NCBI GenBank assembly: GCA_041751485.1
Contig: JBGSXG010000048.1
Span: 1-39,464, forward strand
Direction: 5' to 3'
DNA length: 39,464 nt
Source of the DNA: Minisyncoccia bacterium
GTDB lineage: Bacteria; Patescibacteriota; Minisyncoccia; Phycocordibacterales; CAJQIN01
Made by a program: the position numbers and the translations under genes. The notes beneath the pieces were generated by a model that was not told the DNA's origin, searched no databases, and was given only the letters and a program-made list of their open reading frames with translations. Shown here one piece after another: positions 37,633-39,267 of this stretch (positions within the stretch are counted from its first letter, which is position 1; each line of letters opens with the position of its first letter).

Positions 37633-38730
37633 ATGAGTAAACAAATTACATTTGGAGAAGATGCGCGGAAGGCCCTCAAGCGAGGTGTCGATAAGGTGGC
37701 AAATACCGTTAAGGTAACGATTGGTCCTCGGGGACGAAATGTGGTTTTGGATAAGGGATATGGCGGACCAACTATTACAAACGATGGTGTATCTATTGCC
37801 AAAGAGATTGAATTGAAAGATCGTCTTGAGAATATGGGCGCGGAAATTGTAAAAGAAGTTGCGACTAAAACTAATGATATTGCTGGAGACGGGACGACCA
37901 CTTCTGTAGTTTTGGCCCAGGCTATTATTGAAGAAGGAATGAAACACGCAACAATGGGAGTTAACGCTATGGCAATTCGATCTGGCATCGAGAAGGCTTC
38001 AGAAGAGGCTGTTAAGGCGCTGAAAGCTATTGCAAAACCCATTAAAGACAAAGAAGAGATTCGACAGGTGGCTACTATTTCTGCTGAGAGTGAGGAATTG
38101 GGAAAGAAAATTGCCGATACTATAGATAAGGTTGGCAAAGATGGTGTGGTTACTGTGGAGGAGTCGCAGACGCTGGGTATTGAAACAGATGTGGTTAAGG
38201 GATTGCAATTTGATAAGGGATACGTTTCTCCATATATGATCACTGACACGGAGCGAATGGAAGCTGAGATGAAAGATGCGCCGATTCTGATTACTGATGG
38301 AAAGATTTCAAATATTAAAGAGATTGTTCCGTTTCTTGAAAAGCTGGCACAAACAGGAAAAAAAGAGCTTGTGATTATTGCTGAAGATGTTGAAGGAGAA
38401 GCACTGGCTACTTTTGTAGTTAATAAACTTCGTGGAGGATTCAACGTGTTAGCTATTAAAGCTCCTGGATTTGGAGATCGAAAGAAAGAAATGCTTGAAG
38501 ACATTGCTGTTACTACTGGCGGTCAGGTGATTTCAGAGGATGCTGGAATGAAGTTGGAATCAATAGAGCTTGGAATGCTTGGAAAAGCAACGCGCGTAGT
38601 TTCTACTAAGGATTCAACTGTGATTGTTGGAGGTAAAGGAAAGAAGTCTGATATTGAAGATCGGGTTGAGCAGTTGAAAACAATGCGAGAACGAACTGAT
38701 TCAAAATTTGACGTAGAGAAACTTGATTAA
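37633..38730 (+). CDS. groEL: chaperonin GroEL, N-terminal 365 codons, ending at an in-frame TAA
   Basis: [35 protein letters not shown]...AGDGTTT... The stop at 38728-38730 sits where the conserved EKLQERLAKL has Glu. Confidence 0.9.
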
Positions 38731-38754
38731 CGCATTGCTAAACTAACTTGTGGT

Positions 38755-39267
38755 GTGGCCGTGGTTCGAGTTGGGGCGGCAACTGAGACAGAGATGAAGT
38801 ATTTGAAACTTAAGATTGAGGATGCCGTTAACGCCACAAAGGCTGCTATCGAAGAAGGAGTTGTTGCTGGAGGAGGAAGCTCTTTGGTCCACACGGCTAA
38901 GAAAATTGCTGGAAAGAAGATGGCAAGTGCAGAAGAGCAAATTGGTTATGACATTGTTGTTCGAGCGCTTGAGGCCCCATTGCGACAAATTGCAATAAAT
39001 GCAGGGAAAGAAGATGGAGCTGTGGTTGTTGAAAAAGTCCGAAATGCTGGAGAGAAGTCTGGTTATAACGCTCTTTCTGGTGAGATTATTTCAGATATGC
39101 TTAAAGCTGGAATTATTGATCCGGTTAAAGTCGAGCGAGCGGCGGTTCAAAATGCAGCCTCAGCGGCAGCGATACTTCTGACTACTGAAGCGGCTGTTAC
39201 AGAAGAGCCTAAGGAAGAGAAGGGTGATGCCACTGGAATGGGAGGGGGAATGCCGGGGATGATGTAA
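38755..39267 (+). CDS. groEL: chaperonin GroEL, C-terminal part, same frame as 37633..38730 (homology resumes right after the TAA at 38731; GTG 38755 is only the first possible restart)
   Basis: RIAKLTCGVAVVRVGAATETEMKYLKLKIEDAVNATKAAIEEGVVAGGG...GGGMPGMM, a typical GroEL C-terminus. Confidence 0.85.
   Translation: MAVVRVGAATETEMKYLKLKIEDAVNATKAAIEEGVVAGGGSSLVHTAKKIAGKKMASAEEQIGYDIVVRALEAPLRQIAINAGKEDGAVVVEKVRNAGEKSGYNALSGEIISDMLKAGIIDPVKVERAAVQNAASAAAILLTTEAAVTEEPKEEKGDATGMGGGMPGMM

What the first reader, a model, noticed from the sequence alone, without database searches (positions are those of the whole stretch)
38701..38760. groEL is interrupted by a single in-frame TAA at a conserved Glu codon
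The reading frame is ...[31 protein letters not shown]..., and both halves are in the same frame. This aligns with the near-universal GroEL segment D.EKLQERLAKLAGGVAV.KVGAATE. TAA 38728-38730 therefore replaces GAA (Glu) by a single G-to-T change. Seven codons later, TGT (Cys, 38749-38751) sits where GGT (Gly) is almost invariant, which is a second G-to-T change. Everything else in the gene looks intact, including the GGM tail, and groES is intact. No SD or ATG precedes the C-terminal part; only GTG 38755 is available. The options are a consensus or sequencing artefact (G-to-T is the classic oxidative-damage error), a recent nonsense allele in a population, stop-codon read-through, or a genuinely split or dead chaperonin.
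Basis: partly seen in the sequence, partly recalled or inferred. Interest (0 to 1): 0.6.

Follow-up and report, generated by a model that had tools for sequence, protein, structure and literature searches.

The report
Stop codon in groEL: assembly error
The stop codon that cuts the only chaperonin gene of this tiny hot-spring bacterium is really in the assembled sequence, but it is most likely a base-calling error in a thinly covered draft genome, so the finding is ordinary.

Summary
groEL (37633-39267, +) has an in-frame TAA at 38728-30 where 25 of 26 compared relatives have Glu, and a TGT (Cys) at 38749-51 where all 26 have Gly. Each is one G-to-T step from the relatives' codons. The window is a whole contig of a 637-kb, 82-contig Paceibacteria (CPR) genome assembled from a hot-spring metagenome.

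Four results point to an error rather than biology:
- **Thin coverage.** The one public run that holds the contig covers it at a word depth of only 5-9. Its independent Logan contigs stop at 38712 and resume at 38779, so the 66 bases holding both changes are the part not rebuilt.
- **A second broken essential gene.** The single isoleucyl-tRNA synthetase gene, on another contig, has an in-frame TGA where both same-genus relatives have Gly (GGA/GGT). That is again one G-to-T step. Neither of the 2 sampled words over that site was found in any run.
- **No decay.** Both genes are otherwise as conserved as their intact relatives.
- **Standard code.** TAA ends 56% of long ORFs and ends groEL itself. 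RF1 and RF2 are both present, and no suppressor tRNA was found.

There is no second groEL. A real, very recent nonsense allele cannot be excluded without raw reads; 5 of 30 order relatives lack groEL altogether. The scan has met this kind of artefact before on other DNA.

The parts
37160..37477 (+). groES (Cpn10), intact
   Evidence: ORF. PF00166 match at E 8e-31. The closest relatives have the same RNase J - SBP - secG - groES - groEL order.
37633..39267 (+). groEL (Cpn60) reading frame, complete apart from one internal TAA. It is the only Cpn60 gene in the genome.
   Evidence: It is 78% identical to the same-genus relative and 86-87% to the nearest database proteins. It departs from 213 columns invariant in relatives at 5 places, against 2-12 for the intact relatives.
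38728..38730 (+). In-frame TAA at the Glu column; GAA to TAA is one G-to-T step.
38749..38751 (+). TGT (Cys) at the invariant Gly column; GGT to TGT is one G-to-T step, 21 bases after the first change.
38713..38778 (.). Stretch of 66 bases not covered by any listed Logan contig of run X1. It holds both G-to-T changes.
   Evidence: In one search, contig 7 ends at 38712 and contig 8 starts at 38779, at word depths 5.5 and 5.3. Logan discards 31-mers seen only once in a run (PMC12424806).
38755..39267 (+). C-terminal remnant ORF (170 aa, GTG start) produced by the stop; not a credible separate gene.
   Evidence: ORF. No ATG occurs for 21 codons after the stop. This exact protein is on record only from this one contig.

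Best explanation
The TAA and the nearby Cys codon are most likely base-call or consensus errors carried into a low-coverage short-read metagenome-assembled genome. On this reading the organism's real groEL reads GAA (Glu) and GGT (Gly) and encodes a normal GroEL that works with the intact groES. The proposed mechanism is inferred, not shown. Around 38713-38778 the assembler had only one or very few reads. A poor or oxidatively damaged read carried two G-to-T miscalls 21 bases apart, and they were written into the consensus. The same process produced a GGA-to-TGA stop in the single IleRS gene on contig C4.
For: 1. Depth is low. Logan contigs of the one run that holds the contig (X1, 91% of sampled words) are identical to the window wherever they exist, but at a word depth of only 5-9.
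2. Both changed bases lie in a 66-base hole between two Logan contigs (38712 | 38779). Such holes make up about 8% of the 20 kb laid. Logan drops words seen only once.
3. A genome-wide survey tested 47 of the 52 same-frame ORF pairs separated by one stop against Pfam. Only two were single genes cut by a stop: groEL and IleRS.
4. IleRS is single-copy and uninterrupted in 20 of 20 relatives. Its TGA sits where both same-genus relatives have GGA/GGT. Neither of the 2 sampled words over that site is held by any listed run.
5. Neither gene shows decay. GroEL departs from invariant columns at 5 of 213 places (relatives 2-12), and the part after the stop is as conserved as the part before it. IleRS departs at 8 of 248 (relatives 5-19).
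6. All three changes are G-to-T on the coding strand. Under uniform mutation, counted strand-blind as G:C-to-T:A, p is about 0.016. Two anomalies falling within 21 bases in a 1.6-kb gene has p of about 0.03 (my own estimate).
7. The two GroEL fragments are on record only from this one NCBI contig. No relative or database protein shares either change.
Against: No raw reads could be inspected, so the wild-type alleles were never seen. No same-species sequence exists in the collections searched (best 87% identity). The IleRS coverage test rests on just 2 sampled words. Other Logan holes in the window show no G-to-T anomalies in RNase J or the neighbouring gene. The G-to-T class alone is weak evidence, since it makes up 34% of all nonsense paths at this codon usage. 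groEL is truly absent from 5 of 30 relatives of the order, so its loss is biologically possible. No HhH-GPD (MutY-type) glycosylase was found in the genome, so a real G-to-T mutational bias is conceivable.
Confidence: 0.72

Rival explanations
1. The nonsense allele is real and very recent. On this reading the sampled population, or a sub-lineage that dominated the few reads, has just knocked out its only groEL by G-to-T mutation, the first step of the gene loss already completed in some related families.
For: 5 of 30 relatives of the order, 95-100% complete, have no Cpn60 gene at all. No MutY-type glycosylase was found, which in other bacteria raises G:C-to-T:A rates (established knowledge). 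No paralog exists, and the stop is present in the only assembly available.
Against: The same genome also has a nonsense codon in its single IleRS, which cannot be lost. So at least one of the two stops is not a fixed real allele. There is no relaxation of constraint after the stop, and groES is intact. Both same-genus relatives and all 13 closest database proteins (83-87% identity) are intact. At a place supported by very few reads, sequencer or library error is far more probable than a rare lethal or deleterious variant (inference).
Confidence: 0.2
2. The stops are decoded. This would be programmed read-through or a partial stop-codon reassignment, with TAA read as Glu in groEL and TGA read as Gly in IleRS, the latter as in code 25 of other CPR lineages.
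For: The TGA in IleRS sits exactly at a Gly column, and TGA is the rarest stop (41 of 338 long ORFs). Both genes are otherwise perfectly preserved.
Against: TAA ends 190 of 338 long ORFs, including groEL itself. RF1 (PET motif) and RF2 (SPF motif) are both encoded. No tRNA with a stop-reading anticodon is among the 30 found. Only 2 of the 47 stop-separated ORF pairs tested are single genes, and they use two different stops for two different residues. No motif is shared around the two stops. The Cys at an invariant Gly is not explained by decoding.
Confidence: 0.04
3. The chaperonin is genuinely made in two pieces, 365 aa plus about 170 aa, that assemble into a working GroEL.
For: Both halves are in the same frame and well conserved.
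Against: No ATG occurs for 21 codons after the stop and only GTG 38755 is available. That start would also delete 8 conserved residues. No relative has such a split. The break lies inside one Pfam domain.
Confidence: 0.02

Closest known systems
Spurious internal stops ('pseudogenes') from single-base consensus errors in low-coverage short-read MAGs and draft genomes
   Same: The stop is private to one assembly and lies in an essential, otherwise perfectly conserved gene. Depth is low, the site lies where an independent assembly of the same run has no contig, and a second essential gene in the same genome is hit the same way.
   Different: Nothing differs in kind. The wild-type reads themselves could not be shown here.
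G-to-T / C-to-A artefacts from 8-oxoguanine formed during DNA shearing or library preparation, and G/T channel confusion in Illumina base calling (own knowledge, not checked in papers here)
   Same: All three anomalous bases are G-to-T on the coding strand, and two of them lie 21 bases apart, as if on one read.
   Different: Three events are too few. At this codon usage, 34% of all nonsense paths belong to this class anyway. The read-1/read-2 asymmetry that defines oxidative artefacts could not be tested.
Real loss of groEL in reduced genomes: the 5 of 30 relatives here, and some Mollicutes from own knowledge
   Same: The genome is small (0.64 Mb) and belongs to an order in which Cpn60 is missing from some near-complete genomes.
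   Different: Those genomes lack the gene altogether. Here the gene and groES are intact and conserved apart from two adjacent base changes.
Genetic code 25 (TGA = Gly) of Gracilibacteria and Absconditabacteria
   Same: This is a CPR bacterium with a TGA at a Gly column in IleRS.
   Different: RF2 is present. TGA ends 41 of 338 long ORFs. No tRNA-Gly(UCA) was found. Only one in-frame TGA turned up in the genome survey, and the groEL stop is TAA.

Membership tests
GroEL / Cpn60 group I chaperonin (PF00118) | Full-length match to the Cpn60_TCP1 profile above the curated cut-off | tested here: met
   249 bits against a cut-off of 34.3, residues 22-523 of the read-through protein. 78% identical to the same-genus GroEL.
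GroEL / Cpn60 group I chaperonin (PF00118) | groES directly upstream on the same strand | tested here: met
   Cpn10 at 37160-37477, with the same gene order as in relatives.
GroEL / Cpn60 group I chaperonin (PF00118) | Uninterrupted reading frame of about 545 codons | tested here: not met
   TAA at codon 366. All 25 relatives with a groEL match show no internal stop; in one of them (G002) the gene is split across two contigs.
Assembly or base-call artefact in a low-coverage MAG | The change is private to one assembly and absent from all relatives | tested here: met
   The fragments are on record only from this contig. 26 relatives carry Glu (Lys in one) and Gly at these columns.
Assembly or base-call artefact in a low-coverage MAG | Low or missing read support at the site | tested here: inconclusive
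   Word depth is 5-9, and the site lies in a 66-base hole between Logan contigs. Logan drops words seen once. The reads themselves are not held.
Assembly or base-call artefact in a low-coverage MAG | Other indispensable single-copy genes of the same assembly carry the same kind of lesion | tested here: met
   IleRS has a TGA at a Gly column (GGA/GGT in same-genus relatives). It is single-copy and intact in 20 of 20 relatives.
Assembly or base-call artefact in a low-coverage MAG | Reads or an independent assembly show the wild-type base | not testable with these tools
   Only Logan contigs of run X1 are available, and no same-species sequence is in the protein collection.
Stop-codon reassignment or programmed read-through | The codon is not used as a terminator and its release factor is lost | tested here: not met
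   Long ORFs end in TAA 190, TAG 107 and TGA 41 times. RF1 and RF2 are both present.
Stop-codon reassignment or programmed read-through | A tRNA that reads the stop codon | tested here: not met
   None among the 30 tRNAs found. The tRNA set is incomplete, so this test is weak.
Genuine pseudogene | Relaxed constraint or further lesions, especially downstream of the stop | tested here: not met
   Identity to relatives after the stop is as expected from relative-to-relative comparisons. Departures from invariant columns number 5, within the relatives' range of 2-12.
Genuine pseudogene | The function is covered by a paralog or is dispensable in the lineage | tested here: inconclusive
   There is no paralog, but 5 of 30 relatives of the order have no Cpn60 gene.

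The most novel reading that the evidence does not exclude
Both stops are real and fixed. This ultra-small hot-spring Paceibacterium would then still make full-length GroEL and IleRS by efficient read-through of TAA and TGA at specific sites. That would be context-dependent suppression of two different stop codons in a bacterium that keeps both release factors.
Probability: 0.03. Interest if true: 0.75.

Novelty: not a real feature. Interest (0 to 1): 0.08.

Why it matters
If the stop were real, a bacterium would be caught in the act of losing its only chaperonin, or of reading through stop codons in essential genes. As it stands, the value is practical. This MAG carries at least three probable base errors in conserved genes, which would be annotated as pseudogenes of groEL and ileS. 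Gene-loss inferences for CPR bacteria drawn from such low-coverage genomes need read-level checks. The true absence of Cpn60 in some related families is the more interesting biological lead.

Tried and rejected
- **Second groEL copy:** none in the 637-kb genome.
- **Same-species groEL in other samples:** two searches of the 5.8-billion-protein collection, one with the full-length protein and one with a 141-aa piece over the site. The best hits were 87% and 77% identical, so no independent allele call was possible.
- **Exact look-up of the two fragments:** on record only from this contig.
- **Read pile-up:** only Logan contigs are held. They leave a hole over the site and list no alternative letters.
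- **Error signature in other Logan holes of the window:** RNase J and the neighbouring 395-aa gene show no G-to-T anomalies. The one departure inside a hole is Lys (AAG) for Gly, which would need two changes, neither of them G-to-T. The third gene tried has too few relatives.
- **Recoding:** rejected on stop-codon usage, both release factors being present, and the tRNA set.
- **G-to-T as proof of an artefact:** rejected as sufficient on its own. This class makes up 25% (coding strand) to 34% (strand-blind) of nonsense paths at this codon usage.
- **groES-groEL spacer hairpin:** folding energy is not different from shuffled sequence (z = -1.1).
- **Survey limits:** 10 of the 47 stop-separated ORF pairs tested had no Pfam match on either side, so they remain unresolved. 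Two further pairs inside the window and one pair antisense to groEL were judged from the ORF map alone. Frameshifts were not surveyed.

Full report
**What is in the sequence**

The window is one whole contig (C48, 39,464 bases) of a genome of 637,410 bases in 82 contigs, rated 96% complete. The nearest named proteins come from Paceibacteria/Parcubacteria MAGs. The only run that holds the contig is labelled a hot-springs metagenome.

groES lies at 37160-37477 and groEL at 37633-39267 on the + strand, behind RNase J, a solute-binding protein and secG. The closest relatives have the same gene order.

The groEL frame contains TAA at 38728-38730 and then continues unbroken to a GGM-type tail and a normal TAA stop. 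Seven codons after the internal stop, TGT (Cys) occupies 38749-38751.

I compared 11 relatives taken from genomes and the 15 nearest database proteins. The stop column holds Glu in 25 and Lys in one. The Cys column holds Gly in all 26. The relatives' codons there are GAA/GAG and GGA/GGC, so each change is a single G-to-T step. GTG 38755 is the only start codon available, and no ATG occurs for 21 codons.

**Is the gene decaying?**

No. Read through, the protein is a full-length Cpn60 (249 bits).
- It differs from 213 columns invariant among 11 relatives at 5 places, the Cys being one. The intact relatives, scored the same way, differ at 2-12 places.
- The part after the stop is as similar to relatives (64-76%) as expected from comparisons among the relatives themselves.
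- groES is intact.

So the stop is either extremely young or not real.

**Is there a back-up copy, and is groEL dispensable here?**

The genome has exactly one Cpn60 match. Of 30 relatives of the same order, 25 have a groEL match without any internal stop. Five genomes that are 95-100% complete and in 10 or fewer contigs have no Cpn60 family match at all. Loss of groEL is therefore possible in this order, which keeps a real knock-out on the table.

**Read support**

One public run (X1) holds 91% of the sampled words of the gene, but only its Logan contigs are kept, not its reads.

I laid these contigs on the last 20 kb of the window. They are identical to the window wherever they exist, at word depths of only 5-9. 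They are broken by six holes covering about 8% of the stretch.

One hole runs from 38713 to 38778: contig 7 ends at 38712 and contig 8 begins at 38779. This 66-base stretch contains both G-to-T positions. Logan discards 31-mers seen only once in a run and then prunes weak graph paths (PMC12424806). The stretch holding the two odd bases is thus the part of groEL that an independent assembly of the same run did not rebuild.

This shows weak support, not the wild-type allele. A hole in contigs is not proof of absence.

**A second broken essential gene**

I listed all 52 places in the genome where two open segments of at least 100 codons share a frame and are separated by one stop. I scanned 47 of them, read through, against Pfam. 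Three others were judged from the ORF map alone: two ordinary adjacent-gene pairs inside the window and one pair antisense to groEL.

- 35 are ordinary neighbouring genes, with one domain ending before the stop and another starting after it.
- 10 have no Pfam match and remain unresolved.
- Only two are single genes cut by a stop: groEL and the isoleucyl-tRNA synthetase gene on contig C4 (L035:199-3861, minus strand).

The IleRS gene has a TGA at L035:3118-3120. The gene is single-copy, and all 20 relatives searched have an uninterrupted frame of 1105-1205 codons. Both same-genus relatives have Gly (GGA, GGT) at the column of the stop, so this too is one G-to-T step on the coding strand.

IleRS is otherwise normally conserved. 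It departs from 248 invariant columns at 8 places, against 5-19 for the relatives.

A 61-base query centred on this site gave 2 sampled words, and no listed run holds either. For comparison, 91% of words were held for groEL. This hints that this site also lies outside the Logan contigs, but with only two words the test is weak.

A bacterium cannot live without IleRS, so at least this stop is not a fixed real allele. The shared pattern makes the same explanation the simplest one for groEL.

**Recoding and read-through**

- Long ORFs end in TAA 190 times, TAG 107 times and TGA 41 times. groEL itself ends in TAA.
- Two release factors are encoded, one with the PxT-type motif (PET) and one with SPF.
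- None of the 30 tRNAs found reads a stop codon, although the tRNA set is incomplete.
- The two stops are different codons at columns for different residues, and their contexts share nothing.

The TGA at a Gly column recalls code 25 of other CPR lineages. However, RF2 is present, TGA is used as a terminator, and only this one in-frame TGA was found, all of which speak against that code.

**How strong is the G-to-T signature?**

G-to-T on the coding strand makes up 25% of all single-base paths to a stop, and the strand-blind class G:C-to-T:A makes up 34%.
- Two of two nonsense changes in that class has p of about 0.11.
- Adding the neighbouring missense change gives p of about 0.016.
- Two anomalies falling within 21 bases in a 1.6-kb gene has p of about 0.03 (my own estimate).

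These figures are suggestive and fit one poor or oxidised read, but they are not proof. The other Logan holes in the window showed no such anomalies in RNase J or the next gene.

The genome has an Fpg-type glycosylase but no HhH-GPD (MutY-type) enzyme was found. A real G-to-T mutational bias therefore cannot be dismissed.

**Verdict**

The most likely account (about 0.72) is that the TAA and the Cys codon are base-call or consensus errors at a very thinly covered spot of a low-depth MAG, and that the organism has a normal GroES-GroEL system.

| Reading | Probability |
|---|---|
| Base-call or consensus error | about 0.72 |
| Real, very recent nonsense allele of groEL | about 0.2 |
| Read-through or recoding | about 0.04 |
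| Two-piece chaperonin | about 0.02 |

The real-allele reading is supported only by the dispensability of groEL in some relatives. It is weakened by the IleRS twin, the lack of any decay, and the intact groES.

The decisive test is the raw-read pile-up of run X1 at three positions, which these tools could not provide.

The scan has recorded the same kind of artefact on other genomes, but I did not check those notes myself.

Noticed in passing
L035:199-3861 (- strand; G000 contig C4), outside the window: The single IleRS gene has an in-frame TGA at L035:3118-3120 where same-genus relatives have Gly (GGA/GGT). This is a second essential gene broken by one G-to-T step.
   Followed up: yes
L035:199-3861 (- strand), protein P0124 residues 530-697: IleRS carries a histidine-phosphatase domain (PF00300, E 7e-38, RHG motif) inserted inside the class I catalytic domain. 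The insertion and motif are present in all 9 relatives of the order that were aligned, and 20 of 20 relatives have frames of 1105-1205 codons. I do not know of a description of such an IleRS.
   Followed up: partly
Genomes G007, G010, G013, G020, G021 (same order): Five near-complete relatives (95-100%, 10 or fewer contigs) have no Cpn60 family match at all, so groEL seems to have been lost in parts of this order. groES was not checked there.
   Followed up: partly
window 37478-37632: The groES-groEL spacer is unusually long at 155 bases, against 8 and 107 in the closest relatives. It has a long imperfect hairpin (about 37503-37564) followed by CTAA-rich words. The fold is no better than shuffled sequence (z = -1.1).
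   Followed up: partly
window 26414-26448 and 36994-37068: One Logan contig of run X1 joins 26448 to 37068, skipping 10.6 kb. Many short contigs of three runs match 26414-26447, which is a CTAATAT heptamer array. The join is probably an assembly-graph shortcut.
   Followed up: no
G000 whole genome: No HhH-GPD (MutY/Nth/OGG-type) glycosylase was found in the 96%-complete genome, although an Fpg-type one is present on contig C70.
   Followed up: no
Protein collection, hits P0224-P0244: Many GroEL pieces of 226-227 aa recur on long contigs (up to 286 kb) from several sources. They may be table-11 gene calls on genomes with a reassigned stop codon.
   Followed up: no
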